From: Candidatus Dojkabacteria bacterium
GTDB lineage: Bacteria > Patescibacteriota > Dojkabacteria > J137
Direction: 5' to 3'
Assembly (NCBI GenBank): GCA_025999215.1
Contig: AP024679.1
Span: 633,924-697,923, forward strand
Length of the DNA: 64,000 bases
This document shows, one piece after another, positions 3,441-61,825 of the stretch. The notes beneath the pieces are model-generated. The model ran no database searches and was not told the origin of the DNA. It worked only from the letters and a program-made list of their open reading frames with translations. The stretch's first letter is position 1. Each line of letters starts with the position of its first letter. A program made the translations under genes and the position numbers.

Positions 3441-6400
3441 TTAAATTATTTTTTTAAGCCATTGACCTGTATAGCTATTTTCACAATTCATCACATCTTC
3501 AACACTACCTTCAACTACAATTTCACCTCCTCTATCACCACCTTCCGGACCTAAATCAATTATCCAATCAGCAGTTTTAATTACATCTAAGTTATGTTCA
3601 ATCACCAAAACTGTGTTACCTTTTGCAACCAAACCATGAAGCACCAAAAGCAATTTCCTTACATCTTCAAAATGCAACCCAGTTGTAGGTTCATCTAAAA
3701 TATAGAATGTTTTACCTGTTGAACGCTTTGATAGTTCTGTTGCTAGTTTTACTCTTTGCGATTCACCACCTGATAGAGTTGTTGCACCTTGACCTAATCT
3801 GATATAACCCAATCCTACATCATTCAATGTTTTTAGCTTAGTTTTAATTTTAGGAATATTTTCAAAAAAGCTTAGTGCTTCATTTACCGTCATATCCAAA
3901 ACTTCAGAAATGTTTTTTCCTTTATAATCAATTTGTAAAGTCTCTCTGTTGTATCGCTTTCCGTTACACTCATCGCATTTAACGTAAACATCTGGCAAAA
4001 ATTGCATTGAAATTTGAATAACGCCTGCTCCTTGACATGCTTCACATCTACCTCCTTTTACATTGAAGCTAAACCTTCCCGGTTTGTAACCTCTTGCTCT
4101 TGCTTCTTTAGTTTGTGCAAAAATATTCCTAATTTCTGTGAAAATTCCCGTGTAAGTTGCTGGATTTGATCTTGGTGTTCTTCCGATTGGCGATTGATCA
4201 ATATCTATCACTTTATCAATGTGCTCAATTCCTCGTAATGTTCCAAATTTACCGAGTTGATTTGAATTACCATTTAACTCTTTTGCTAGTGCTTTGTAAA
4301 GAATTTCATTTACTAATGTAGATTTTCCAGATCCTGATACTCCTGTAACTGCTACAAATTTACCTAGAGGAAATTCACAATCAAATCCTTTGAGATTATT
4401 TTCTTGAACATTTGTAACAATTATTTTGTTGTTGTTTACTTTTCTAAAAGATTTTAAGCCTAATTGCTGTTTAACTTCTTTTTCTATTTCATTTTTTGAA
4501 ATTTGAAGTTTTTTTGATAAATATTTACCTGTTATTGAATTATCAACTTTTTTAATGCCTTCTACATCTCCTGCGTATACTACTTCACCTCCTTTTTCGC
4601 CAGCACCAGGACCTATATCAATAATATAATCAGCTCTATTTATAGTATCTTCATCATGTTCAACAACTATAACAGTGTTACCGATATCTCTTAAATTTTC
4701 TAAAGTTCTAATTAATCTTTCATTATCTCTTTGATGCAATCCAATTGAAGGCTCATCAAGCACATACAAAACTCCCGTTAATCCTGTACCTATTTGAGAA
4801 GCTAAACGAATTCTTTGAGATTCACCACCTGATAAAGTTTTGGCAGATCTACTAAGCGTTAAATATTCAAGACCAACAGCAAGCAAAAAGTCTAGGCGCG
4901 ATTCAATTTCTTTAAAAACTTGCTTTCCTATCACGAGTTCTTGATTTGATAATGAATCGTCGTCATTGATTTGTATGCCAAAAAGTTCTTGCATTGTTTG
5001 AGAAGTTTGTAACTTCGCCTTTCCTTGTTTTGTTTGTGATACCCAAAGCTTAGCTTGTTTAATAGACATATTAACAACATCCACAATGTTTAAACCATTT
5101 ATTGTAACACTTAGAGATTCTTTCTTGAGTCTATAGCCATTACATTCTGGGCAAACCTTTTCAAACATATATTGCTCAATTTCGCTCCTTACATACTCAG
5201 ATTCACTCTCTTGATATCGTCTCATTAAATTTGGAATCACACCTTCATATTTCAAACTAACTTTCTTCTTGTTTCTGTACGAATCTGTATACTCAATTTC
5301 AAAAGTTTTATCGGGTAGTCCAAACATCAAAATATCAAAATGTTTTTTACTTAACTCACCAATAGGCTTTTTAAGCGAAAAACCTTCTTTTTTAGCAACA
5401 TTATGAATTAATTTCATCATGTAAGAATTCTCATTATCTATTATTCTGTTCCATGGATAAATTCCACCTTCCATCACTGTCAATCGTGGATTGTAAACTA
5501 GAGACAGATCGATTTCTTTTATAAATCCCAAACCGCCGCACTTACTGCACGCACCATGAGGGGAATTGAATGAAAAAGAATGAGGTTCAATTTCTGGAAA
5601 AGATTCACCAGTAGTAGGATCAACTAATTTTTCAGAATAAAAAAGATCCCCATTTTCATTCGTTTTTAAAATAGATTTATAATTTTTAAAATCATTCAAA
5701 TGAACATATATTTCACCATTGCCATAACTTAAAGCTAGTTCAACAGAATCAGTTAACCTTTTTATAAAATTATCATCATCTTTTGAATCATTATTTAAAA
5801 CAAGCCTATCAATAATCAAATCAATATTGTGTTTTACATACCTTTCTAAAGTGATATCTTCTTCAAGCGAGTAAATTTGCCCATCCACTCTCACTCTAGC
5901 AAAACCTTGAGCTAAAAATCGTGTGAATAGTTCTTCATATGTGCCCTTTCGACTTTTAATAACCGGAGCAATAATCATGATTTTAAGCTTATCAAATTTT
6001 AGTTTTTGGGGTAATTCACAAATGCTATCTACAATTTGCTGTACTGTTTGTTTTTGCAATCGCTCACCAGTTTTGTGGCTTCTTGGGTGCCCCACTCTAG
6101 CAAATAAAAGTCTTAAATAGTCATAAATTTCTGTTACTGTTCCAACGGTGGATCGTGGATTGTGTCCTGTCGACTTTTGATCAATTGAAATTGCCGGTGA
6201 AAGTCCTTCAATCAAATCTACATCAGGTTTATCCATTAAACCTAAAAATTGCCTTGCATAAGACGATAATGACTCTACATACCGTCGTTGTCCTTCTGCA
6301 TAAATCGTATCAAACGCAAGTGATGACTTACCTGATCCTGATAAACCTGTGATAACTGTTAATTTATTTTTTGAAATATCTACATCTATGTTTTTTAGAT

Positions 6401-6443
6401 TGTGAGTTCGGGCTCCTCTTACTTTGATTTTTTCTATAGCCAT
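3441..6443 (-). CDS. uvrA: Excinuclease ABC subunit A
   Basis: 1000 aa with two ABC ATPase modules (GLSGSGKSSLAFDTIYAEGQRRYVESLS; second Walker A GVSGSGKSTL) and zinc-finger cysteines. Confidence 0.95.
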   Translation of the reverse strand: MAIEKIKVRGARTHNLKNIDVDISKNKLTVITGLSGSGKSSLAFDTIYAEGQRRYVESLSSYARQFLGLMDKPDVDLIEGLSPAISIDQKSTGHNPRSTVGTVTEIYDYLRLLFARVGHPRSHKTGERLQKQTVQQIVDSICELPQKLKFDKLKIMIIAPVIKSRKGTYEELFTRFLAQGFARVRVDGQIYSLEEDITLERYVKHNIDLIIDRLVLNNDSKDDDNFIKRLTDSVELALSYGNGEIYVHLNDFKNYKSILKTNENGDLFYSEKLVDPTTGESFPEIEPHSFSFNSPHGACSKCGGLGFIKEIDLSLVYNPRLTVMEGGIYPWNRIIDNENSYMMKLIHNVAKKEGFSLKKPIGELSKKHFDILMFGLPDKTFEIEYTDSYRNKKKVSLKYEGVIPNLMRRYQESESEYVRSEIEQYMFEKVCPECNGYRLKKESLSVTINGLNIVDVVNMSIKQAKLWVSQTKQGKAKLQTSQTMQELFGIQINDDDSLSNQELVIGKQVFKEIESRLDFLLAVGLEYLTLSRSAKTLSGGESQRIRLASQIGTGLTGVLYVLDEPSIGLHQRDNERLIRTLENLRDIGNTVIVVEHDEDTINRADYIIDIGPGAGEKGGEVVYAGDVEGIKKVDNSITGKYLSKKLQISKNEIEKEVKQQLGLKSFRKVNNNKIIVTNVQENNLKGFDCEFPLGKFVAVTGVSGSGKSTLVNEILYKALAKELNGNSNQLGKFGTLRGIEHIDKVIDIDQSPIGRTPRSNPATYTGIFTEIRNIFAQTKEARARGYKPGRFSFNVKGGRCEACQGAGVIQISMQFLPDVYVKCDECNGKRYNRETLQIDYKGKNISEVLDMTVNEALSFFENIPKIKTKLKTLNDVGLGYIRLGQGATTLSGGESQRVKLATELSKRSTGKTFYILDEPTTGLHFEDVRKLLLVLHGLVAKGNTVLVIEHNLDVIKTADWIIDLGPEGGDRGGEIVVEGSVEDVMNCENSYTGQWLKKII

Positions 6444-6558
6444 AATGTTTTTTTAAACGCTATCCAGTCATTATAACATTCTCTGTTAATATTTTTAAAA
6501 TTGTATAGCAAAATTTTTTATTAAAATTAAAATATTTTATAAAAAACTTCAAAAAGAC

Positions 6559-6587
6559 TTGAACTTTTTTTGAAAATGATGTAAAAT
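6559..6587 (+). promoter_or_regulatory. Sigma70-type promoter, TTGAAC-17-TAAAAT
   Basis: -35 at 6559-6564, 17-nt spacer, -10 at 6582-6587. No ORF downstream. Confidence 0.5.
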
Positions 6588-6593
6588 TGCTTA

Positions 6594-6665
6594 GTGGTAA
6601 CTCATGTGTATAGAACCATGTGTTGCCCCTTCCCTAAAACCCTTCAAGTTCCTTGAAGGGTTTTT
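6594..6665 (+). ncRNA. Candidate small RNA 1 (about 72 nt), ends in an intrinsic terminator
   Basis: Transcript predicted from the 6559-6587 promoter. Terminator: 9-bp stem CCCTTCAAG/CTTGAAGGG (6640-6660) followed by TTTTT. Confidence 0.35.
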
Positions 6666-7328
6666 ACTTTCTTATGTCAATACTTCACAAAAAAATTAAA
6701 ATGAGCAATTTAAAACATGTAAAAAAGTATGGTAAAATTTAGTTAATCGTACTTTAGAATCGGTGAAATAGTGCTAGGCGAAAGGCTAAATATAGATCAA
6801 GGCAGTAAAAGCCCCCCAACACCTCAACACCCATTCCATTATTCATAATTGATAAGTAATCTATAAAAAATTTGGTAGTATTTTTAGTACTTTTATTGAT
6901 AACTAAAAAATTTCGAAGTGTATTAGGATATATATTATATACTAATTTTCTTTGCAAACCCTAGAGCTTTTCATTTTAAAGCTCAAACTTTACAGATTAA
7001 TAAATTTTCACTAAAAAACTTTACATATTTAACAAATATTTTGTGTACCTGTTCAGGTGGGATAATGTTCCATGACTGAACGGCGATTTCCCACCTTTTA
7101 CTACAAAGTTAATATATTTTTCTAAATTTGAATATTGAAAATGTAAAATTAACTGTCGTGAGCGAACGGCTATTACTCTTTTAATTTTTCGAAAACTCCT
7201 TCTATCTATATTTTAAATTATAACAAAATTTAGTTTTTATAAGAAAAATAAAAAAGGCTTGTTTTTTGTTTAGTTTTATTATAAAATGACATAGGATGTT
7301 TTTTTCATTTTTGTATCCTTTTTTTATA

Positions 7329-7359
7329 CCCTTCCAGTTCCATCTAGGAAGGGTTTTTT
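7329..7359 (+). terminator. Intrinsic terminator-like hairpin, CCCTTCC-loop-GGAAGGG plus T6
   Basis: Stem 7329-7335 / 7347-7353, then T-tract 7354-7359. Sequence resembles the 6640-6665 terminator, suggesting a paralogous unit. Confidence 0.45.
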
Positions 7360-7421
7360 CTTACTAAAATAACTGATTAGTTTAAAGCTAAAATTTCAAG
7401 CAAAATTTTAGCCAATAAATG

Positions 7422-7449
7422 TTGACTTTTTTTAATTTTAATATATAGT
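7422..7449 (+). promoter_or_regulatory. Sigma70-type promoter, TTGACT-16-TATAGT
   Basis: -35 at 7422-7427 and -10 at 7444-7449 in an ORF-free region. Confidence 0.45.
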
Positions 7450-7455
7450 ATACCT

Positions 7456-7556
7456 TTCAAACTTGCCGCGGAGTTTCCCGGTTCGCGTTCTCTAAGGCAA
7501 GTGAAGTCTATCTATATGGTGGGTAAAGAAAAATCCAGGCCAGCTTTCACCCACCA
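7456..7556 (+). ncRNA. Candidate small RNA 2 (about 100 nt)
   Basis: Predicted from the promoter at 7422-7449. Internal stem CTTGCC...GGCAAG. Terminal 9-bp stem ATGGTGGGT/ACCCACCAT (7506-7547) followed by a U-rich tail. Confidence 0.35.
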
Positions 7557-7688
7557 TATTTCTTTGATAAAAAAAACTTATTATAATTTTTTCAATAAAT
7601 ATTTCCATCAGAATCTATCTATACAACATCAAAATTAATTGTAAGATTTAATATTTACTAATAATACAATTTATAGTACAATACTAAT

Positions 7689-7756
7689 GCCGTGAACACA
7701 CACTCCTAACGGCACATTGAGCTCATTTATCATAAATGAGCTCTTTTACTTTTTTA
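7689..7756 (+). ncRNA. Candidate small RNA 3 (about 68 nt) with a strong intrinsic terminator
   Basis: Possible promoter TTTACT-17-TACAAT (7654-7682). Hairpin GCCGT/ACGGC. Terminator: 10-bp stem GAGCTCATTT/AAATGAGCTC (7719-7743) plus a T-run. Confidence 0.35.
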
Positions 7757-7858
7757 AAATTTATTTAAGTACGTAATTTTTTGATTTAAATACTCTTATT
7801 TAACTTGCATAATTTTTTGTTTTATTGTATCTTTACGATAATTGACACCCTCTTTCTG

Positions 7859-7893
7859 GCTCCAGAAGCAAACTTCTGGAGCTTTTTCTTTTT
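7859..7893 (+). terminator. Intrinsic terminator, GCTCCAGAAG-CAAA-CTTCTGGAGC plus T-tract
   Basis: Perfect 10-bp stem (7859-7882) followed by TTTTTCTTTTT, with no upstream ORF. Fits the same small-RNA array. Confidence 0.5.
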
Positions 7894-8121
7894 GTGGATG
7901 ATAATTGCAAAATTTAATTAGGTTACTATCATGCAATATGTTAAAATGGAAGTGTTAGAGCTTTTCTCTCAAGCTTTAGCAAAGGAGAATTCTTGACGCC
8001 CACTCAAGAATTCTCCAAATTTCCTTCTTGTTTATCTCTTTTGATGGTTAACAATATACGATAAAACTAAAACAGCCATGAGGTTTGAGCACATTTCAAT
8101 ATTTTTTGTAAATAAAAAAAT

Positions 8122-8150
8122 TTGACAAAGTTTATTTAAACGTGTTACAA
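8122..8150 (+). promoter_or_regulatory. Sigma70-type promoter, TTGACA-17-TACAAT
   Basis: Consensus -35 at 8122-8127, 17-nt spacer, -10 at 8145-8150. Downstream is a structured region closed by ACCAGGGG(8161-8168)/CCCCTGGT(8203-8210). Confidence 0.5.
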
Positions 8151-8665
8151 TGCATTAATTACCAGGGGTTTCAGGATGCGACATTACCATTGTCGTCCCT
8201 CCTCAAATTGCTCATGAAGCGTGCCCCTGGTCTTTCCTTATATCAACTTAGGTTTTTAGAGTTATTTTAAGCAGATTTTTTCACTGGGTATGTTATTTAA
8301 ATTAAATATAAATTATTTTTCATTATAGTTTCAAACTTGTAATTATTTTGATTTTTCTTTATAACTATTCCGCTTAGCATGGTCTCATTCGCCATGGCTT
8401 TGCAACTCCGCTTACTTGTTGATATACAAAATTTTCTTTAATATCTATATAAGTATCGTCTTTATTTTATTAAATTATTTGTTAACTTAAACAGTTTTTA
8501 ATACATTGCCAATTGTTAAAAATATTTAATAAAAATTTTTTGACAGTTACAAAGTTTTTTATTTATTGATCAACAAGGAAAGTAATTTATTGTTGAATGT
8601 TGAATTAATATTTTAAAAGAATTTAACTATCTTTATATTCACACCCCAAGAATCTACTAATGTTG

Positions 8666-8694
8666 TTGACACTAAAGTGTGTGTATGGTATAAT
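8666..8694 (+). promoter_or_regulatory. Perfect consensus sigma70 promoter with extended -10, TTGACA-17-TGgTATAAT
   Basis: -35 TTGACA at 8666-8671, 17-nt spacer, TG at 8686-8687, -10 TATAAT at 8689-8694. Confidence 0.7.
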
Positions 8695-8700
8695 ACTGAG

Positions 8701-8822
8701 TATGGCCCCCAAATTGGGGCCTGCAGCAGATGAGGCTTCGTGCCTCTTGTGTGTGGTATGATGCACCCTCACAATGTGGAAAACACGGAGCCTCAAAACC
8801 AAATCATCTGCTAACTTTTTCT
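8701..8822 (+). ncRNA. Candidate highly expressed structured small RNA (about 120 nt), antisense to the tyrS 3' end
   Basis: Starts about 7 nt after the perfect promoter. 5' hairpin GGCCCC-CAAATT-GGGGCC (8704-8721). Nested long-range pairings GCAGCAGATGA(8724-8734)/TCATCTGCT(8804-8812) and GAGGCTTCG/CGGAGCCTC. Then a TTTTT tract at 8816-8820. Overlaps the last roughly 20 nt of tyrS on the opposite strand. Confidence 0.45.
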
Positions 8823-9928
8823 TCGATCTGCTTTCTCCATTGTTTAATTTCATCTTGATTTAAATACTCTCTAGCAGGATCAAGTATTTGATTTAGAGTT
8901 TTAGCTACAGCTTTTTTCAAATCAGCAGGGTGAAGTTTTTTTTCAATAAAATCATTCTGTAATGTTTGATAATCAAAATATTCAACATCACCTCCCCATT
9001 TTTCAGGTCTTTCTACTTTTAAAGTAAAATTCATAACATTAAAAATCAAATGTTCTACCCAATCTAAAATTGGATTTAATTGCACAACTCCCTCAGGGCA
9101 ATAAGCTTTATTAATTTTTCTGTTTACCTCGTCTTCTGTATCAGTCATAAAAATAGCGCTATCTGGTTTGCTTTTACTCATCTTAAGGTCAGTTCCAACA
9201 TTTGCAATTTCTATTTCATTTTGTTCAATCTTTTTCAAAAGTTCTGGATTTGGTGGTGTTAACCCCATCAATAAATGGTGATGAATTGCAATAGGCTTAA
9301 TTTTTTTATCGTCTAATTTCAAATTATTAAATTTAATTTTATCTGCAACGTCTATTGCAATAACATGAGCTTTTCTCTGATCCATTCCAGCATGCGCAAT
9401 ATTTATATTCATAAAAAAAATATCTGCAACCTGCATTGGTGGATATATAAGCTTCGCAAAATCAACACTCTCACCTTCTTTTCTTCCCATTATTGAAATA
9501 CTTCTCTGTATACGAGATAGAGTTGTATTTTTACTAACATCAACAACTGTAGCCCAATACATCATGTCCTGTGCTATTTCACTACCTGTTACAAACTCAA
9601 TTTTATCAACATCAGCACCCACAACCTTTGCACCCGCAATCATATTTGCCTTAAAAAATGGAATACCCACTTCTCTGATAAATTCTAAATCTCCCCCAAG
9701 TTTATTATTAATCCATGAATGCCAATCTGCCAAAAAGACTTTACAGTTTACTCCCAACGATTGCAATTCCTTGATTACTGCCATACTCATCACCGCTGAT
9801 CCAATATGAGGTTTTCCGGAAATCTCAAAACCGATGTAATGATTTATTGATTGATTGTTTTTAATAAGTTTAATTAGTGTCTCTTCTCCGATAATTTCTT
9901 CCGTAATTTCTTTTAATCTATTTAGCAT
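8804..9928 (-). CDS. tyrS: Tyrosine--tRNA ligase, class I, archaeal/eukaryotic-like type (TrpRS not fully excluded)
   Basis: HIGH-like motif (GKPHIGS), KMSKS motif, and a class Ic Rossmann core (FLADWHSWIN). Confidence 0.7.
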   Translation of the reverse strand: MLNRLKEITEEIIGEETLIKLIKNNQSINHYIGFEISGKPHIGSAVMSMAVIKELQSLGVNCKVFLADWHSWINNKLGGDLEFIREVGIPFFKANMIAGAKVVGADVDKIEFVTGSEIAQDMMYWATVVDVSKNTTLSRIQRSISIMGRKEGESVDFAKLIYPPMQVADIFFMNINIAHAGMDQRKAHVIAIDVADKIKFNNLKLDDKKIKPIAIHHHLLMGLTPPNPELLKKIEQNEIEIANVGTDLKMSKSKPDSAIFMTDTEDEVNRKINKAYCPEGVVQLNPILDWVEHLIFNVMNFTLKVERPEKWGGDVEYFDYQTLQNDFIEKKLHPADLKKAVAKTLNQILDPAREYLNQDEIKQWRKQIEEKVSR

Positions 9929-10004: not shown

Positions 10005-10598
10005 GTGTTAGAATTTGAACAATCATTTAAGTTTTATTCAAAAGACATTGAATTAATCAGTGGTGATAGATTATTTAGTGAAATAAATAGATTTGTAAAT
10101 ATAAATTTAAAAATCATTAAAAAAATTTTAGATGTTGAAGAAAATGAAATTTCAATTAGATTGTGGCCTCATCCATGGAGCGCAGTAACTTTTAAAAAAC
10201 AAACATTTTGCATCTTTTTACCTAAAAATCTCATCAATATAAACCCAAATAAAATTTTCTATTTTACTTCTCAAGAAGAAATATTAATTTTCATTGTATT
10301 TATGCTTGCTCATGAACTTTATCATGTACGACAAGTTGTAAAATATCCAAGTTTTTTTGACAGAAACCATTTAGATATAAGCAAAAACTCCTTTTTGCGA
10401 TTTTACCTTAATCCAACAAATTTCTATAAAACATTTAACGGTAAAATTGAAACCTCAGCAAACCTTTTTGCAATGAAATATATCCAACAAATTCAAGCAA
10501 AAAACCTATTCGGCTTATCAATTCCTGCAAGTAAGTTTTTAGAAAGAAAATTTATTCTTAATTTTATTATACTTGCAATTAATCTTGTTGAATTTTGA
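10005..10598 (+). CDS. Hypothetical protein with HExxH motif, possibly an ImmA/IrrE-like zinc metallopeptidase
   Basis: 197 aa; motif FMLAHELYHVRQ resembles the LAHELGH motif of M78/ImmA-family peptidases. Confidence 0.35.
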   Translation: MLEFEQSFKFYSKDIELISGDRLFSEINRFVNINLKIIKKILDVEENEISIRLWPHPWSAVTFKKQTFCIFLPKNLININPNKIFYFTSQEEILIFIVFMLAHELYHVRQVVKYPSFFDRNHLDISKNSFLRFYLNPTNFYKTFNGKIETSANLFAMKYIQQIQAKNLFGLSIPASKFLERKFILNFIILAINLVEF

Positions 10599-10759
10599 GG
10601 ATTATTTTTGTTTTTATTTTAAAAAATATCTTGGAATTGAAATCTTAGTAAATTTATAAAATGTTACGAAAACATTTTTGAAGTTTTAAAGCTAGCGAAT
10701 ACCTGAAACAAATCTAACTTTTAATTTTATTTGCATATTTCGTCCTGGGTCAACGCGAT

Positions 10760-10840
10760 TTATAAGGGCATGGACTCATCAGTCACAGATCCAATATGAG
10801 ATATTTTAAGAGTGAATACAGTCATGGAGCCATAAGCCAA
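10760..10840 (-). pseudogene. Degenerate fragment resembling the tyrS N-terminal region (gene remnant)
   Basis: Reverse complement reads SMTVFTLKISHIGSVTDESMPL*, compare tyrS FEISGKPHIGSAVMSMAV. It shares the nucleotide string gatccaatatgag with tyrS at 9797-9810. Confidence 0.3.
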
Positions 10841-11170
10841 GCTAGGCATCAAAAAGACTGTGTTCACTTTTTTAAAAAATTTTTAATCTAGAGAGATATT
10901 AAAAGAAATGAACACGAGCGGGGATATTTCGTTTTCCTTCCACCTGCACCAATCTTTGTTAAAATCGTATAAGGTACATCGGCTTTACGGGCAGGTTCGT
11001 CTTGAGATAAACCAAGACCAGTTCTTAACTTTTTGATTCTTTCTTAATTTATTGTCTTGTCTATCTTCCATATTTTGATATCATAAAATTATTGATATCT
11101 TCTTCTTTCATTATTATGCTAACAAATATAATAAAGACAAGCAAATTTTTACAACTCAAAGATGAGAAAA

Positions 11171-11244
11171 AGCCCGCTTTTGGCCTGCATGCTCCGCACG
11201 TAAAAGTAAAGAATATTTGAAGGGAAAATCGGCTGGCGAGCCCT
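11171..11244 (+). repeat. Copy A of an approximately 73-bp direct repeat (about 96% identical to copy B at 15238-15310)
   Basis: agcccgctttTggcctgcatgctccgcacgtaaaagtaaagaatatttgaagggaaaatcggctggcgagcc; the two copies differ by one inserted T and one G/C change. Confidence 0.8.
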
Positions 11245-11313
11245 TTTAAATTCCACCCAGAATGCCAATTGGCAGAAAGGACTGGACGCTTTTCGAACTT
11301 TCCCCTGGTTTGA

Positions 11314-11684
11314 TCATATCAAAAATACTGATGACTTCATCAAGGATTTAAATTCCCTACTTAGCTTTGCCTTTTCCACCGGATATTTCTTATCGTTTAT
11401 ATCAATCTTCTCATCAATTATCTCCAATAGATCTACGCCTGCTTCTTTGCACAATAGAAGAAGATAAATTCCTACATCTGCAAGCTCTTGTCTGAATTCT
11501 GCAACCTTATCTGGATTCTATAGAACTTTTTTAGATTCGTCTAAAACCTTCCAAATAAAGTATTCAATAACCTCAGAAGCTTCAAACGATAAAGCAATTG
11601 CTAGATTTTAGGATTGTGAAACTGCTCCCGATCTCTATCTGTTCTGAATTTTTCTATCTTCTCTACAATTTGTTGAATGTTCAT
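11314..11684 (-). pseudogene. MazG-like nucleotide pyrophosphohydrolase pseudogene (frameshift plus internal stop)
   Basis: Reverse-strand translation MNIQQIVEKIEKFRTDRDREQFHNPK / [frameshift] NLAIALSFEASEVIEYFIWKVLDESKKVL*NPDKVAEFRQELADVGIYLLLLCKEAGVDLLEIIDEKIDINDKKYPVEKAKL... matches the MazG/YpjD NTP-PPase family. Reading is interrupted by a frameshift and a TAG. Confidence 0.6.
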
Positions 11685-11743
11685 TTTAGTAATTTAAAAG
11701 TTAAGTTTTATTAACTCGGAATTTTAAGTATTAATATAATTTT

Positions 11744-12589
11744 CTAGCTTTTGTCTACTAAAGATCTCAAAAAGACTTTAGAAGTCTTGCTATGTATTAG
11801 TCTTGTTGGTCCTGTGGCAATCAATCTAATCTGATCATTACCATTATAACTTCCTTGTAAACTCTTTGTTCTTGCCTCGGTATAATCATACTCTGGTGAA
11901 TTATCTGAACGCATACTAATATATGCATCCTTCTGAAAAGTAACTATAATTCCTCTTTTATCTTTCATAAAGTGATGAATAACTCTTTCCATCCTTCTTT
12001 GATCAAAGTACTCAACCTGCGATAAGGCTTTACTACCAAATAAACGTCTTAAGCCATTTACTCCTGCCCATGGTTCAACACTTGGTGTACTAGGCATTGA
12101 GAAGTATGAAGCAAATCCAAGTAAGAAAGGAGACTCATACCTACCAGACCATAAGATCTCTTTTCTTTCATGACTTTTATCTAAATTGCTTGCTCCTGAT
12201 GAATCTGGTAATATAGCTACTCCAGTTTCTCTTAGAACCTTCCATACTCTGTGTTCTCTGCCATCTCCCTCAAATGAGAATATTGCCTTTTCTTTTACAG
12301 AGTGGGGGGCAGGATTACCAAAAACTAGCAATAAAGGAGTTCTTGAATCTTGTAGATTTGGAACTAACGATTGTGAGTAGTAGCTAAGAGTATCTCCTTC
12401 TTTAAAAAAAACATATTGATTAGAATCATCAGACTGATAGAATTCATTCCATCTTGTTTCGAACTGAGCTCTTTCTTCTCCTGCTGAATATAAAGCATTT
12501 AAGTTAATGGAAATTTTTTCTATACCTTTTTCTACAAGTTCAATTGAGAAGTTGCCGTCATTAAATTGTTCAACTAATTTATCATCCAT
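11744..12589 (-). CDS. Hypothetical protein; weak resemblance to uracil-DNA glycosylase superfamily motif A (LLLVFGNPAPHS)
   Basis: 281-aa intact ORF. The GxNPxP-like motif is the only recognisable feature. Confidence 0.35.
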   Translation of the reverse strand: MDDKLVEQFNDGNFSIELVEKGIEKISINLNALYSAGEERAQFETRWNEFYQSDDSNQYVFFKEGDTLSYYSQSLVPNLQDSRTPLLLVFGNPAPHSVKEKAIFSFEGDGREHRVWKVLRETGVAILPDSSGASNLDKSHERKEILWSGRYESPFLLGFASYFSMPSTPSVEPWAGVNGLRRLFGSKALSQVEYFDQRRMERVIHHFMKDKRGIIVTFQKDAYISMRSDNSPEYDYTEARTKSLQGSYNGNDQIRLIATGPTRLIHSKTSKVFLRSLVDKS

Positions 12590-12768
12590 AAATTCTTATT
12601 TATATGATTTTAAAAGCTTATCTATTATGTTCATGATCTCTATTTCGTCGTTAATATCTAGCTTATATTGTATTTCTTTTCTGGAAATCTCATTTAAACT
12701 TTCTTTTATTTCATCTGTATTTAATTGGTCGATTCTAATAAGGTGTAACGACTTGGTGTTATTTACAA

Positions 12769-13929
12769 TTACATTTTTAAGTCAATTCTGATACTGATTC
12801 CGAAAATATAGGTTTGTACAATCTTAGGATTGAGCATTTTGACGCACATATCAATTACATGGCGAGGGGTGAAGTATTGGCCCTTTTCGCCTTTTGATGA
12901 CTTATTGACCAAGTATTCAAAGGCTTCGTCAATAATTTGCAGATTGGAATTGAAAAGTTTTATATCCTGCAAGCTGGAAACGCTGACGGAAAGATGAGAG
13001 GGTGAAAGTTGAATAAGGCTTCCTTCATCAAAAACGCCCGGCCACTTGGCCTTGGCTTCATCAAAAAGTTTTTGTATTTTCTTTTTAAGTTCTGACTCTG
13101 ATTGTCCGGAGTTTCTAAATTCTAAAACCCTGAAATTGGAATCATCTATTTTTGCCAAAACTTCTTTTACCTTGTCATAATCTCCGCGATCTTCTTGGCT
13201 TAATTTGTCTTCAAGATAAATTTCCAGACGCATTTTGTCTTTTTTGCTCTGCAATTCATCGTAAAGTTTGGTGAAAATTAGTTTAAAAACTTCTTCAAAA
13301 ACATCCACGCCAGCGTTTGCTAAAACTTCATCTTCCATTTCCTGAATAATGGTTTTGAACGATTTTCCCTCGTTTGGGATTTTGTCTTTGATGATTAAGT
13401 CTTTGAGGGTGAATCTTTCTTTTAAAATATCGGAAAGCGTCTGATCGGCTTTGGGAATGTCGGTAATGTCTTCAAAATAGTTCGGATCTTTGCGGTGGTA
13501 ATGACTGATTTGTCCGCCGTTGGTCCAAACTGCAATTGGCGCGCCGGTGGCGTTGGTGTAGGAGCGGAGCTGATTCTTTCCGTCTTGGAGTTTTGACTTT
13601 TTTACTTCAACGATAATGTATTCAACTGTCGGGCGGTCTTTGTCGAAAATAACAATATCGGCGGATTTTACCTGTCTTCCAAAATGGATAGCGTGTTCAA
13701 ATTTGATTCTTTGTTTTGGGTAGCCATATTCTTCAATGAGTTTCATGGCGTAAAGCTGGCGGACGACTTCTTCGGATTTCAAAACAATTTCTTTATCACG
13801 GATAGCGCAAACAACATACGGCTTGCCATTTTTGAAAGTTATTTTACTTTCTAATTCATCAACCAGCTTTTGGTCAAAAATAGAAAAGCTGTAATTTGAA
13901 TCTTTGATAATGTTTAAAATGTTTTTCAT
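12769..13929 (-). pseudogene. Truncated N6-adenine DNA methyltransferase (HsdM/type IIG-like) with HSDR_N-like N-terminal domain
   Basis: N-terminal HSDR_N-like segment (ADIVIFDKDRPTVEYIIVEVKK). MTase motif X (GQYFTPRHVIDMCVKMLNP) is followed immediately by a stop. The downstream DPACGSGGFL and NPPF/Y motifs are absent. Locally higher GC than the surrounding genome. Confidence 0.65.
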
Positions 13930-14015
13930 AGTTTTAACTTTATTAAATCATCAACACTAGCTTCAAGCTCTTCTGTAGTCTTGGCTAATTTTTCGTAATA
14001 TGGTTTTTGCATATT

Positions 14016-14924
14016 TTATTTATTATAAGTATAACTTTGTTTAATAAGCTCGAAAACCTGGTCAATTTCTTCTTCTTTTTCGAGTTTCACTTCATAATCA
14101 CCATTGCCCCAATGTCCAACCTTTTTCGGTTTTGCAAGATCGCGAGCAATGCCGTGAGGATCATTGAGCTCGCCACTTGGTACATTGAGAAAAATTTTGA
14201 GGCCATATTTTTTTACAACAACATCAACAAAATTCGTCGATAGCTTGTAGGCGATATATTTTGCTTTCGGCTCAACGATAATGGATTCATCAAGCGCAAC
14301 AATTTTTTCATTGATTGCCTCAAAAATTTTCTTGGCTTTTGGGCTGATTCCGCCTAGATGGTCTTCGAGGGTGTATATGACTTTTTCCTTGATTACCTTT
14401 TCTTTCTTTTTTTTGTCAAAAACTTTCGCGGTTGAGATACGCACTTTTTGTTGTGTTTCCGGTTCAACTAAAAGAATGTTGTTTTGGTAAATGCGGAATT
14501 TCAAAAGCTCAATTTTGATAGGGAGCAATTCAGCAGTATCTAAATCAAATTTATTGTAGCTTTCGGCAACGCAGATAACTCGGGGGGAGGCCCAATCAAT
14601 ATCAACATTCACTTTTGCTTTTTGCACTAAAACTTCAAAATCGGCTTTGTGGTCCAAAAGCCATCGAAGATATGAGAGTCCTTGATTGATCACATTATCG
14701 TTTTGGTTTCTTTTGTACTCGATGATTACTGGTGAGCCGTTCTTGTCAATGCCGAGAGAATCAATCCGTCCCCCGAAACTCGTTGAGTATTCGCTAGTGA
14801 GAAATGTGATGTTCAAAATCTCATTTAGATTTTTTTCAAAAATTTTCTGTATATCTCTTTCTAACCCAACTTTGATCGGAGGAATTTTTCTTACTTTGCC
14901 GTTTTGTATTAAAAATAAGGCCAT
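14016..14924 (-). CDS. NucS/PD-(D/E)xK-like nuclease domain protein with DUF5655-like C-terminus
   Basis: Motif GGRIDSLGIDKNGSPVIIEYKR matches the PD-(D/E)xK core of NucS/DUF91-type nucleases. Higher-GC gene inside the island. Confidence 0.5.
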   Translation of the reverse strand: MALFLIQNGKVRKIPPIKVGLERDIQKIFEKNLNEILNITFLTSEYSTSFGGRIDSLGIDKNGSPVIIEYKRNQNDNVINQGLSYLRWLLDHKADFEVLVQKAKVNVDIDWASPRVICVAESYNKFDLDTAELLPIKIELLKFRIYQNNILLVEPETQQKVRISTAKVFDKKKKEKVIKEKVIYTLEDHLGGISPKAKKIFEAINEKIVALDESIIVEPKAKYIAYKLSTNFVDVVVKKYGLKIFLNVPSGELNDPHGIARDLAKPKKVGHWGNGDYEVKLEKEEEIDQVFELIKQSYTYNK

Positions 14925-14928
14925 AGTT

Positions 14929-15183
14929 TTATTTCACTAAATCATCTAAAAAAACGCCAAGACCCTTAGCAACTTTCGTTATTGTCTGCAAAGAGGGATT
15001 TTGAATAACATCACTCTCAATTTTAACTAAAGTCGTATAGGGAATATCTGCCTTTTTTGCCAAAGCGTCCTGCGTAATTTCTTTCTTTTTACGCCATGAT
15101 TTGATTTTTTGGTCTATTGTTTTGACTCGATTCATTTTCTTTCTTCCATATAATACTAGTATAAAGTTATTGGCATTTAGCAA
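14929..15183 (-). CDS. XRE-family helix-turn-helix transcriptional regulator, candidate controller (C) protein of the adjacent nuclease/methylase genes
   Basis: 84 aa with HTH_XRE signature (ITQDALAKKADIPYTTLVKIESDVIQNPSLQTITKVAKGLG). Confidence 0.7.
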   Translation of the reverse strand: MLNANNFILVLYGRKKMNRVKTIDQKIKSWRKKKEITQDALAKKADIPYTTLVKIESDVIQNPSLQTITKVAKGLGVFLDDLVK

Positions 15184-15237
15184 TCATCAATATTATGATA
15201 ACAAGTATGCTGGGATCAATCAAATTAAAAATTCGGG

Positions 15238-15310
15238 AAGCCCGCTTTGGGCCTGCATGCTCCGCACGTAAAAGTAAAGAATATTTGAAGGGAAAATCGG
15301 CTGGCGAGCC
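15238..15310 (+). repeat. Copy B of the approximately 73-bp direct repeat, immediately 3' of tRNA-Ser(GGA)
   Basis: Near-identical to 11171-11244. Contains a GCCC-GCTTT-GGGC hairpin that would serve as the tRNA terminator on the minus strand. Confidence 0.8.
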
Positions 15311-61485: not shown

Positions 61486-61575
61486 GGAGAGGTGGCCGAG
61501 CGGTCTAAGGCACATGTCTCGAAAACATGAAGGGCAAAAAAGCCCTCGTGGGTTCGAATCCCACCCTCTCCGCCA
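61486..61575 (+). tRNA. tRNA-Ser (anticodon CGA), CCA encoded
   Basis: GGAGAGGTGGCCGAGCGGTCTAAGGC... with anticodon loop CTCGAAA, a long variable arm, T-loop GGTTCGAATCC and 3' GCCA. Confidence 0.9.
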
Positions 61576-61825
61576 ATTGGTATTCTGGGGGGAATTTAAA
61601 AGGGCACGCCAGCTGAGTTTCCCTTCAAATATTTTTACTTTGCTTGAAAAGTAAGAGAGCAAAAGCGGGTTTTTTCTCATCTTTGGCTTAAAAATTTGCT
61701 TGCCTTGAGTATTACTTAGTATAATGTTGACACATGTAAATATAAAAAATTGTAGTTTGCTATAACTAAAAATACTCACCCACAGGGGTGTTGAACGTTT
61801 CACTTGAGGAGTTAATAAAATAATT

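What the first reader, a model, noticed from the sequence alone, without database searches (positions are those of the whole stretch)
6444..8800. ORF-free 2.36-kb stretch containing a tandem array of promoter-hairpin-terminator units (putative small-RNA gene cluster)
Between uvrA and tyrS there is no ORF longer than 67 aa. Despite that, the + strand carries at least four near-consensus sigma70 promoters (6559, 7422, 8122, 8666). Each is followed 55-120 nt later by a GC-rich stem plus T-tract; clear terminators lie at 6640, 7329, 7506, 7719 and 7859. Two of the terminators (6640 and 7329) are sequence-related (cccttc[a/c]agttcc...gaagggttttt), which suggests paralogous units. A short motif gaacggc[g/t]att recurs at 7071-7085 and 7163-7176. 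Two of the longest non-coding regions in this reduced genome densely packed with transcription signals is unexpected.
Basis: seen in the sequence. Interest (0 to 1): 0.75.

Follow-up and report, generated by a model that had tools for sequence, protein, structure and literature searches.

The report
Predicted small-RNA gene cluster, Dojkabacteria
A 2.4-kb gene-free stretch in a tiny hot-spring bacterium (candidate phylum Dojkabacteria) looks like a row of about eight separate small non-coding RNA genes, one of which is conserved with matching base-pair changes in the nearest relative; it is a solid lead, but nothing shows expression and no function is known.

Summary
Window 6444-8803, between uvrA and tyrS (both on the minus strand), has no credible ORF. 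It contains all four long-stem, T-tailed intergenic terminators of the 64-kb window, all on the + strand, and the window's two best sigma70 matches (8122, 8666). It alternates between GC-richer structured islands (43% GC) and very AT-rich spacers (19%). I read it as about eight co-oriented promoter/hairpin/terminator units of 60-125 nt (A-H) plus four weaker islands.

Unit H (8666-8823) is conserved at the same locus in the nearest relative. There the promoter is kept and a 12-bp helix shows 4 compensatory changes and no broken pair. Units A-G are missing from that 296-bp gap, but the relative has its own ORF-free cluster of similar units elsewhere.

It is not a true tandem array. The units are unrelated in sequence, apart from two traces of local duplication. 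Nothing matches Rfam, proteins, phages, plasmids, CRISPR or TIGR arrays.

Best reading: lineage-specific, fast-evolving small-RNA genes, a known kind of gene not yet documented in this phylum. Expression and function are untested. Interest is moderate.

The parts
6470..6499 (-). Likely uvrA promoter (TTTAAA-18-TATAAT with TG), 27 nt upstream of the uvrA ATG. It marks the left edge of the cluster.
6559..6672 (+). Unit A. Weak promoter TTGAAC-17-TAAAAT (6559-6587, 9/12), hairpin 6596-6627, and a 13-bp terminator 6636-6665 with a T tail.
   Evidence: (MFE -29.2 kcal/mol, z -6.9)
6746..6835 (.). GC island A2 (43% GC), strand uncertain. It folds better on the minus strand (-24.5 vs -11.1 kcal/mol). 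A minus-strand promoter-like site lies at 6867-6838 and a short hairpin at 6799-6815.
7056..7099 (+). Island X1: hairpin GGTGGGA...TCCCACC followed by TTTT. It carries GAACGGCGATT (7078-7088).
7155..7182 (+). Island X2: short hairpin with a T-rich tail. It carries GAACGGCTATT (7164-7174) and is probably a partial duplicate of the X1 3' end.
7259..7359 (+). Unit B. Very weak promoter (TTGTTT-17-TAAAAT, 8/12, read from the sequence), hairpin 7293-7318, and terminator 7329-7359, which is related in sequence to the terminator of unit A.
7422..7565 (+). Unit C. Promoter TTGACT-16-TATAGT (10/12), hairpin 7462-7501, and an 11-bp stem with a 24-nt loop and a T-rich tail at 7514-7565.
   Evidence: (z -3.3)
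7654..7755 (+). Unit D. Promoter TTTACT-17-TACAAT (9/12), hairpin 7688-7714, and an 11-bp terminator 7719-7743 with a T tail.
   Evidence: (z -6.7)
7785..7893 (+). Unit E. Promoter-like TTTAAA-17-CATAAT (9/12), hairpin 7822-7841, and an 11-bp terminator 7858-7883 followed by TTTTTCTTTTT.
   Evidence: (z -6.3)
7905..8029 (+). Unit F. Promoter-like TTGCAA-16-TATCAT (9/12), hairpin 7954-7980, and a 13-bp hairpin 7984-8016 with a weak T tract.
   Evidence: z -5.0
8122..8239 (+). Unit G. Strong promoter TTGACA-18-TACAAT with TG (11/12). The closing stem CCAGGGG/CCCCUGG encloses about 55 nt with an inner hairpin. The tail is UCUUUCCUU.
   Evidence: (z -3.8)
8370..8415 (.). GC island I (49% GC): a small hairpin with two UCCGCUUA copies. 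It has no promoter or terminator.
8666..8823 (+). Unit H, the conserved small RNA. Its parts:
- Consensus promoter TTGACA-17-TATAAT with TG (8666-8694).
- Hairpin P1 at 8704-8721.
- 12-bp helix P2, pairing 8731-8742 with 8784-8795.
- Conserved tail AAAACCA at 8795-8801.
- Outer stem pairing 8723-8733 with 8804-8812.
- T tract at 8814-8823.

The last 20 nt overlap the 3' end of tyrS on the opposite strand.

Best explanation
The stretch is a cluster of about eight independent small-RNA genes on the + strand, antiparallel to both flanking genes. Each unit has its own sigma70-type promoter, often with an extended -10. Each is predicted to give a 60-125 nt transcript made of a 5' hairpin and a second GC-rich hairpin that ends in a U tract, read as an intrinsic terminator.

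**Shown (in silico):**
- The signals exist, are co-oriented and are positioned relative to one another as a transcription unit requires.
- Composition alternates between GC-richer units and AT-rich spacers.
- No coding potential is detectable.
- Unit H is conserved at the same locus in the nearest relative, with covarying base pairs.

**Inferred:**
- The units are actually transcribed and end at these hairpins.
- They act in trans as regulatory RNAs, by base pairing or by binding a protein.

Targets are unknown. The classical anti-Shine-Dalgarno mode is unlikely, because this genome has no Shine-Dalgarno sequences. The cluster evolves fast: local duplication followed by divergence, and gain or loss between close relatives.
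For: **Terminators and promoters**
- 7 terminator-like sites against 1.0 expected, 6 of them on the + strand.
- All four intergenic T-tailed hairpins of at least 10 bp in the 64-kb window lie here. So do the window's two best promoter matches.
- In 7 units, a + strand promoter-like -10 element ends 6-22 nt before the first hairpin (coordinates). My rough binomial estimate for this is about 3e-5; the hairpin starts were picked by eye.

**Composition and folding**
- Units are 42.7% GC and spacers 19.3%. Genes are 32-33%.
- An unbiased 50-nt scan gives 10 GC peaks that coincide with the units. The GC standard deviation is 0.12 here against 0.07-0.08 in genes.
- Folding z-scores run from -3.3 to -6.9 for A and C-H (B is -2.4 there), and from -3.5 to -7.1 for A-H with slightly different bounds.

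**Unit H**
- The nearest relative has TyrS and UvrA at 78% identity. It keeps H in the 296-bp tyrS-uvrA gap, with the same -35 and extended -10 elements.
- It also keeps hairpin P1 (one flipped pair), helix P2 (12 of 12 pairs in both sequences; 4 double changes, 1 single change, 0 disruptions) and the tail AAAACCA. When the partner strand is slid by 1-3 columns, only 29-50% of positions pair.
- G-U pairs fit only the + strand.
- The short ATG-initiated ORF in H is not conserved in frame or length, so the conservation is at the RNA level, not the peptide level.

**The relative's own cluster**
- It carries a 1.2-kb ORF-free cluster of promoter / structured RNA / U-tract units upstream of ychF. 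That cluster includes a tandem duplication.

**Absence of coding signal**
- No hit in tblastn of 974 ORFs from the window and from relatives' loci.
- No credible family match (no Pfam hit; best PHROGs E-value about 0.05) for the 10 longest stop-free segments.
- Two exhaustive protein searches found nothing.
Against: - There are no expression data of any kind.
- Units A-G are absent from the syntenic gap of the only close relative. No unit except H has comparative support.
- Promoters of A, D, E and F are only 9/12 and B is 8/12. About 13 such matches are expected by chance in this AT-rich stretch.
- The terminators of C, G and H are non-canonical: a long loop, or a weak or displaced U tract.
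- The MFE difference between strands is small overall (-275 vs -272 kcal/mol summed). Island A2 favours the minus strand.
- No Rfam family matches.
- No target stands out among the 51 translation-initiation regions in the window.
- H covariation rests on only two distinct sequences. 31 of 500 column shuffles reach the observed score.
Confidence: 0.55

Rival explanations
1. The 2 kb holding A-G is non-functional leftover DNA, either a decayed or truncated insertion or the non-coding part of a lost mobile element. It sits in a variable neighbourhood. Only H would be a real gene. The other hairpins and promoter-like sites would be residual or fortuitous.
For: - A-G are absent from the syntenic 296-bp gap in the nearest relative.
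- The tyrS neighbourhood is a hot spot. The relative has a defence island (ArdA, OLD-like, MmeI-like, AAA_21) on the other side of tyrS.
- The window has an att-like repeat pair bracketing a degraded restriction-modification / PDC-S18 island at 11128-15310.
- 9/12 promoter matches are common by chance.
Against: - There is no similarity to any phage, plasmid or protein.
- Spacers at 19% GC and islands at 43% GC are unlike decayed coding DNA, which is 32-33% GC here.
- Perfect 11-13 bp stems with strand-specific T tails, and 11/12 and 12/12 extended -10 promoters, are hard to keep without selection.
- Terminators of this quality occur nowhere else in the 64 kb.
Confidence: 0.2
2. The units encode very small proteins (about 6-40 aa) translated from leaderless or Shine-Dalgarno-less mRNAs, for example toxins of type I toxin-antitoxin pairs or signalling peptides.
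For: - The genome lacks Shine-Dalgarno sequences, and several genes start 5-8 nt after a -10 box. Leaderless micro-ORFs are therefore plausible in principle.
- H has an ATG 8 nt after its -10 (19 aa), and A has a GTG 7 nt after its -10 (20 aa).
Against: - The H micro-ORF is 19 aa here and 9 aa in the relative, in a different frame, while the RNA helices are conserved.
- In C, D, F and G the first start codon gives 2-13 aa or lies far from the predicted transcription start (read).
- The micro-ORF of A runs into its own terminator stem.
- The hydrophobic ORFs reflect AT-rich codon composition and have no promoter logic.
Confidence: 0.07
3. The stem-loops are an RNA-guide or defence-type array. 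Candidates are a TIGR-like stem-loop array, a CRISPR-like array or some other guide RNA set, processed from longer transcripts.
For: [quoted passage not shown]
- Defence genes lie nearby.
Against: - The region contains no box C (RTGATGA) motif at all.
- It contains no direct repeats.
- Pfam and PADLOC find no Nop or Tas protein, or any other hit, in the three uncharacterised neighbour proteins (166, 197 and 281 aa). The other neighbours match unrelated families.
- Units are 125-690 nt apart, and each has its own promoter and terminator.
- Four loop or interior segments of 21-22 nt have no exact match in IMG/VR.
Confidence: 0.04
4. The palindromes act at the DNA level, as protein-binding operators, recombination sites (attC-like), repeated palindromic elements or a replication origin or terminus.
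For: Several stems are perfect 11-13 bp palindromes.
Against: - The T tracts are strand-specific, and G-U pairs make the helices asymmetric between strands.
- The palindromes are all different, and none recurs elsewhere in the window.
- DnaA boxes do not cluster here.
- No integron-type conserved ends are seen; this rests on inspection only.
Confidence: 0.04

Closest known systems
Clustered bacterial small-RNA genes, each with its own promoter and intrinsic terminator (e.g. Listeria LhrC1-4, Vibrio Qrr1-5, E. coli OmrA/OmrB, Pseudomonas PrrF1/PrrF2; cited from my own knowledge)
   Same: - Intergenic, co-oriented units of 60-130 nt.
- Each has a sigma70-type promoter.
- Each has a 5' hairpin plus a terminator hairpin with a U tract.
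- There are traces of local duplication: the A/B terminators and X1/X2 here, and u2/u3 in the relative.
   Different: - The known clusters are paralogues with a shared seed. Here the units share no sequence and no common motif.
- The known examples mostly target Shine-Dalgarno regions, often with Hfq. This genome has no Shine-Dalgarno sequences, and the window shows no chaperone.
- Expression and targets are unknown here.
GC-rich islands that mark structured-RNA genes in AT-rich thermophile genomes (Klein, Misulovin and Eddy 2002, PNAS; cited from my own knowledge)
   Same: - The genome is AT-rich (30.7% GC) and comes from hot-spring sediment (PMC10516601 for the KatS3mg MAG series).
- Candidate RNAs stand out as 35-50% GC islands in 14-27% GC spacers.
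   Different: - That work concerned archaeal hyperthermophiles. Here the genome is a CPR bacterium.
- The tRNAs here reach 58-59% GC, so the candidates are less extreme than the known stable RNAs.
TIGR-Tas stem-loop arrays (Faure et al. 2025, PMC12045711)
   Same: - Rows of stem-loops with variable palindromic stems and no direct repeats.
- Reported in CPR bacteria.
- The arrays end in an intrinsic terminator.
   Different: - There are no box C / box D motifs.
- No Nop-domain Tas protein lies next to the region.
- Units are far apart and individually promoted and terminated. They are not compact units with 8-12 nt dual spacers.
Rfam families that gave weak hits (PinT, Spot 42, H/ACA snoRNAs)
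   Same: The generic shape of a hairpin plus a terminator, or of two hairpins.
   Different: All scores are far below the gathering thresholds: 26 vs 60 bits, 21 vs 80 bits, and 15-16 vs 40-100 bits. No family hits both H orthologues.

Membership tests
Intrinsic (Rho-independent) terminators | GC-rich hairpin followed directly by a U/T tract on the transcribed strand | tested here: met
   - Met for A, B, D and E: 11-13 bp stems (interrupted in B) with a T tail beginning within 2 nt (B).
- Weaker for F: the T tract is poor.
- Weaker for C: the loop is 24 nt.
- Weaker for G: the tail is UCUUUCCUU.
- Weaker for H: the U tract follows an outer stem.
Sigma70-type promoters | -35 TTGACA and -10 TATAAT hexamers 16-18 nt apart, optionally with an extended -10 TG | tested here: met
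   - H: 12/12 plus TG.
- G: 11/12 plus TG.
- C: 10/12.
- A, D, E, F: 9/12.
- B: 8/12.

All are consensus matches only. Function is untested.
Any described RNA family (Rfam 15) | Covariance-model score at or above the family gathering threshold | tested here: not met
   The region has no hit at gathering score. The best sub-threshold hit is PinT at 26.4 vs 60 bits. For H and the relative's loci only chance-level hits appear.
Conserved structured RNA (unit H only) | Orthologue at a syntenic locus whose base pairs are kept through compensatory changes | tested here: met
   - All 12 P2 pairs are paired in both sequences, with 4 double changes and 1 single change. Slid controls pair at 29-50%.
- The promoter and the tail are conserved.
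- Caveat: only two distinct sequences are available. 31 of 500 shuffles do as well.
Paralogous tandem small-RNA family (LhrC or Qrr type) | Units share sequence and a common seed | tested here: not met
   - All-against-all local alignments show only the A/B terminator pair (z 7.1) above background.
- There are no direct-repeat families and no tandem repeats.
- The covariance model of H finds no second copy.
TIGR arrays | Box C (RUGAUGA) and box D (CUGA) flanking dual spacers in every unit | tested here: not met
   RTGATGA has 0 matches within 6444-8803 and 40 elsewhere in the window.
TIGR arrays | Adjacent Tas protein with a Nop domain | tested here: inconclusive
   Pfam and PADLOC give no hit for the neighbouring 166-, 197- and 281-aa proteins. 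The 197-aa protein has an HELYH motif. Tas proteins were originally found by structure mining, and I ran no fold search.
CRISPR array | Regularly spaced direct repeats | tested here: not met
Decayed protein-coding gene(s) | Residual similarity to proteins in some reading frame | tested here: not met
Hfq- or ProQ-dependent base-pairing small RNAs | A chaperone gene in the genome and a chaperone-binding module in the RNA | not testable with these tools
   Only 64 kb of the 862-kb genome is available, and the source record could not be fetched.

The most novel reading that the evidence does not exclude
This Dojkabacteria lineage keeps dynamic 'islands' of many unrelated, strongly promoted small RNAs. 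These islands turn over between close relatives by duplication, divergence and relocation. Within them, H would be a new conserved structured-RNA class with these features:
- a position fixed beside tyrS;
- an invariant GAGGC that can pair with either a proximal or a distal GCCUC;
- a conserved single-stranded AAAACCA tail.

This would be the first sizeable small-RNA repertoire described in a CPR (Patescibacteria) bacterium. In these organisms Shine-Dalgarno-less, leaderless translation means such RNAs would have to act by a non-classical route.
Probability: 0.3. Interest if true: 0.55.

Novelty: new member of a known kind. Interest (0 to 1): 0.4.

Why it matters
CPR (Patescibacteria) bacteria have very small, gene-dense genomes, and essentially nothing is known about their RNA-based regulation. 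A transcriptome paper on the Saccharibacteria strain TM7x states that it has no validated small RNAs (bioRxiv 10.1101/2022.03.25.485537).

A 0.86-Mb genome that spends 2.4 kb on about eight promoter/terminator-framed structured RNAs suggests that riboregulation is retained, and evolving, in these reduced episymbionts. The closest relative carries a similar cluster at another locus. The region also offers concrete candidates for metatranscriptome mapping. The best is H, because its structure is conserved.

Practically, the region shows that GenBank's 76-aa 'hypothetical protein' KatS3mg085_620, which overlaps H, is probably a spurious gene call.

Tried and rejected
**Searches that gave nothing useful**
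- Rfam at gathering and at E <= 10, on the region, on H alone and on the relative's loci: no credible hit.
- Genome-contig scan with TyrS: only a Woesearchaeota hit, so the scan was wasted.
- Metagenome-contig scan with a 23-base H pattern: one chance hit inside a high-GC coding gene.
- Fetching the source contig by exact protein: not on record.
- uvrA-upstream regions in three relatives with 70-73% UvrA identity: no H-like RNA.
- DNA search against phages and plasmids: only AT-rich chance hits.
- Four loop or interior segments of 21-22 nt against IMG/VR, as a protospacer test: 0 hits.

**Ideas rejected**
- Coding remnants: negative in tblastn of 974 local ORFs, in Pfam and PHROGs, in phmmer against 1.84e9 proteins and in the word-indexed search.
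- Anti-Shine-Dalgarno seed: the genome has no Shine-Dalgarno sequences, and C-rich motifs are only mildly enriched.
- Target prediction against 51 start regions: the best duplex energies equal those of shuffled controls.
- A shared CCUCACAAU motif between H and a unit in the relative: a single 9-mer, not significant.
- CCCTTCMA as a link to the tRNA-Ser flank repeat: 7 matches against 3.2 expected, weak.
- Replication origin: DnaA boxes do not cluster here.
- TIGR or CRISPR array: no box C and no repeats.
- A protein associated with the clusters: the window's 197-aa protein and the relative's 198-aa protein are unrelated.
- tRNA or tmRNA remnants: none.
Full report
**Source and setting.** TyrS and UvrA encoded in the window are 100% identical to proteins of a 'Candidatus Dojkabacteria bacterium' MAG. 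That genome is a single 862,240-bp contig. The locus tag KatS3mg085 belongs to a MAG series from Katase hot-spring sediment (PMC10516601). The window is 30.7% GC. The finding lies between uvrA (3441-6443) and tyrS (8804-9928), both on the minus strand. mfd and ychF lie further left.

- The 2,360-bp gap is the longest in the window.
- The longest ORF fully inside it is 67 aa. It has no relative among 1.84 billion representative proteins.
- A 76-aa ORF overlaps the tyrS 3' end. GenBank annotates it as a hypothetical protein, but it matches only itself.
- The consensus scan gives 7 terminator-like sites against 1.0 +/- 1.0 in shuffles, 6 of them on the + strand. It gives 23 promoter-like sites against 13.2 +/- 3.6.
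- My own scan of the whole window found six T-tailed hairpins of at least 10 pairs. Four are here, all on the + strand (6636, 7719, 7858, 7984). The other two lie inside genes.
- The two best promoter matches of the window (8122 at 11/12 plus TG; 8666 at 12/12 plus TG) are also here.
- Ordinary genes of this genome rarely have such terminators.

**Anatomy**
- I delimit eight + strand units: A 6559-6672, B 7259-7359, C 7422-7565, D 7654-7755, E 7785-7893, F 7905-8029, G 8122-8239 and H 8666-8823.
- Each consists of a promoter-like site, a 5' hairpin that starts 6-22 nt after the -10 element (B is the exception), and a second hairpin that ends in a T-rich tract.
- The predicted RNAs are 60-125 nt long. 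They fold better than dinucleotide shuffles: z is -3.3 to -6.9 for A and C-H and -2.4 for B, and -3.5 to -7.1 for A-H with slightly different bounds.
- Four weaker GC islands lack a full set of signals: A2, X1, X2 and I. A2 folds better on the minus strand.
- Composition gives independent support. The units are 42.7% GC and the spacers 19.3%, while genes are 32-33%.
- An unbiased 50-nt sliding scan finds ten GC peaks that coincide with the units. The spread of local GC is 0.12 here against 0.07-0.08 in genes.
- This alternation is what structured-RNA genes look like in an AT-rich genome. It is unlike decayed coding DNA.

**Quality caveats**
- The strong promoters (C, G, H) pair with non-canonical terminators.
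- The textbook terminators (A, D, E, F) pair with 9/12 promoters, and B has only 8/12. Matches at that level are common by chance here.
- With strict criteria, no unit has both a promoter of at least 10/12 and a canonical terminator.

**It is not a tandem array of paralogues**
- Self-BLAST, repeat finders and all-against-all local alignment show no similarity between units.
- The first exception is the A and B terminators: 27 identical positions over 31 alignment columns, z = 7.1.
- The second is GAACGGCKATT, shared by X1 and X2. It occurs twice in the window against 0.02 expected, but the motif was chosen after the fact.
- These two look like traces of old local duplications.

**Comparative evidence**
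- Only one close relative exists in the databases. It is represented by JGI contigs L001 and L002, with TyrS and UvrA both 78% identical.
- In that relative, tyrS and uvrA are 296 bp apart, and the gap holds an orthologue of unit H only.
- The H orthologue keeps the promoter (GTGACA-17-TACAAT with TG) and hairpin P1, which has one flipped pair. It also keeps the sequence CCAAAUU, a 12-bp helix P2 and the single-stranded tail CUC(U)AAAACCA.
- P2 is fully paired in both sequences, with four double (compensatory) changes, one single change and no disruption. When the partner strand is slid by 1-3 columns, pairing falls to 29-50%.
- G-U pairs fit only the + strand.
- The ATG just after the predicted transcription start opens a 19-aa frame here but a 9-aa frame, in another register, in the relative. 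So the RNA is conserved, not a peptide.
- A covariance model of the H core finds only these two copies in 173 kb of window plus relatives' loci.
- More distant Dojkabacteria (UvrA 70-73% identical) have no H near uvrA or tyrS, and tyrS-uvrA synteny is lost in them.
- Units A-G therefore have no orthologue at the syntenic site.
- However, the same relative carries its own 1.2-kb ORF-free cluster upstream of ychF (L001 18014-19255). It has three or four promoter / structured RNA / U-tract units.
- Two of those units share a duplicated promoter and RNA 5' end but have different bodies.
- The corresponding place in the source genome lies just outside the window.
- Clusters of this kind thus appear to be a feature of the lineage, and they turn over quickly.

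**What it is not**

| Possibility | Result |
|---|---|
| Known RNA family | No Rfam family reaches threshold. No weak family recurs in both H orthologues. |
| tRNA or tmRNA | None found |
| Decayed coding DNA | No protein remnants |
| Phage or plasmid DNA | No similarity |
| CRISPR or tandem repeats | No direct or tandem repeats |
| TIGR-Tas array | No box C motif, and no Pfam or PADLOC hit in the uncharacterised neighbour proteins. I considered this seriously because TIGR-Tas includes repeat-less stem-loop arrays in CPR bacteria (PMC12045711). |
| Guide RNAs against phages | No exact protospacer-like match in IMG/VR |
| Replication origin | No DnaA-box cluster |

**Mechanism**
- The best-supported reading is a set of independently transcribed, intrinsically terminated small RNAs.
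- How they act is inference only.
- The usual Gram-positive mode, C-rich seeds masking Shine-Dalgarno sites, is unlikely. This genome has no Shine-Dalgarno sequences, and several genes look leaderless.
- A duplex screen against the 51 start regions in the window found nothing beyond shuffled controls.
- H has two features worth testing. Its invariant GAGGC can pair with a proximal GCCUC (a 5-bp hairpin) or with the distal GCCUC (the covarying 12-bp P2), which suggests a possible switch. It also carries a conserved unpaired AAAACCA tail.
- In this genome H ends inside the 3' end of the convergent tyrS gene. In the relative it stops about 55 nt short of tyrS. Antisense control of tyrS is therefore not a conserved feature.

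**Verdict**
- Its interpretation is partly supported: a cluster of small-RNA-like genes, yes; a tandem paralogous array, no.
- I put 0.55 on genuine small-RNA genes, 0.2 on mostly non-functional leftover DNA around a real H, and small probabilities on micro-ORFs, guide arrays and DNA-level palindromes.
- As a kind of thing it is known: unannotated small-RNA genes, one of them a new conserved family found so far in two genomes. The phylum has no validated small RNAs to date.
- Interest is moderate. It is a good target for metatranscriptome mapping, not a surprise in principle.

Noticed in passing
window 61565-61712 (+), 11280-11128 (-), 15310-15271 (-): The 3' flank of tRNA-Ser(cga) is about 150 nt long and is repeated. 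One copy is an orphan at 11280-11128 (82% over 153 nt). Another, partial copy lies right after tRNA-Ser(gga) (90% over 40 nt). On the minus strand, 15310..11128 is therefore bracketed by direct repeats next to a tRNA gene. This looks like the att ends of a roughly 4-kb integrated island.
   Followed up: partly
window 11744-14924: The bracketed island holds three things:
- a truncated type I methyltransferase (386 aa, matching positions 8-255 of a 672-position profile);
- a PDC-S18 candidate defence protein with DUF5655;
- a 281-aa ORF with no family.

This is a degraded defence island. In the relative L001, the same side of tyrS carries an island with ArdA, OLD-like, MmeI-like and AAA_21 genes.
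   Followed up: partly
window 61827 to beyond 64000 (+): An hsdM-like type I methyltransferase gene starts at 61827 and runs off the window. The ORF lister therefore omits it, and 61804-63540 wrongly looks like a second long non-coding gap.
   Followed up: partly
whole window, e.g. gene starts at 10005, 19239 and 22050: No Shine-Dalgarno sequence precedes any of 53 ORFs. Several start codons sit 5-8 nt after a TATAAT-like box, which suggests widespread leaderless translation.
   Followed up: partly
window 8804-9928 (-): TyrS is of the archaeal type. Beyond a few CPR relatives, the best hits (about 51-54% identity) carry DPANN or other archaeal names (Woesearchaeota, Pacearchaeota, Nanoarchaeota, Promethearchaeota).
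   Followed up: no
L001 18014-19255: This is an ORF-free cluster upstream of ychF in the nearest relative.
- It has 3-4 promoter-plus-structured-RNA units. Folding z-scores are -8.5 for unit 1, -1.8 for unit 2, -3.3 for unit 3 and -3.1 for unit 4.
- L001 18281-18369 and 18480-18568 are a near-identical tandem duplication of a promoter and an RNA 5' end. The RNA bodies that follow are different.
   Followed up: partly
window 8623-8853 (-): The GenBank hypothetical protein KatS3mg085_620 (76 aa) overlaps unit H and the tyrS 3' end. It has no homologue and is probably a spurious gene call.
   Followed up: yes
window 10812-10880 (+): The next gap (10599-11127) contains a 12-bp stem, GTGAATACAGTC...GACTGTGTTCAC, with a 33-nt loop followed by TTTTTT. 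Three GC peaks lie at 10728-11031. These may be further small-RNA-like elements.
   Followed up: no
window 10005-10598 (+): The 197-aa protein next to tyrS has no Pfam or PADLOC family. It carries an HELYH (HExxH-like) motif, so it may be a small metallopeptidase.
   Followed up: no
L014 5855-5895 (minus-strand reading, upstream of uvrA): A more distant relative has a GATATTA tandem repeat (about 5 copies) and several hairpins in its 536-bp uvrA-upstream gap.
   Followed up: no
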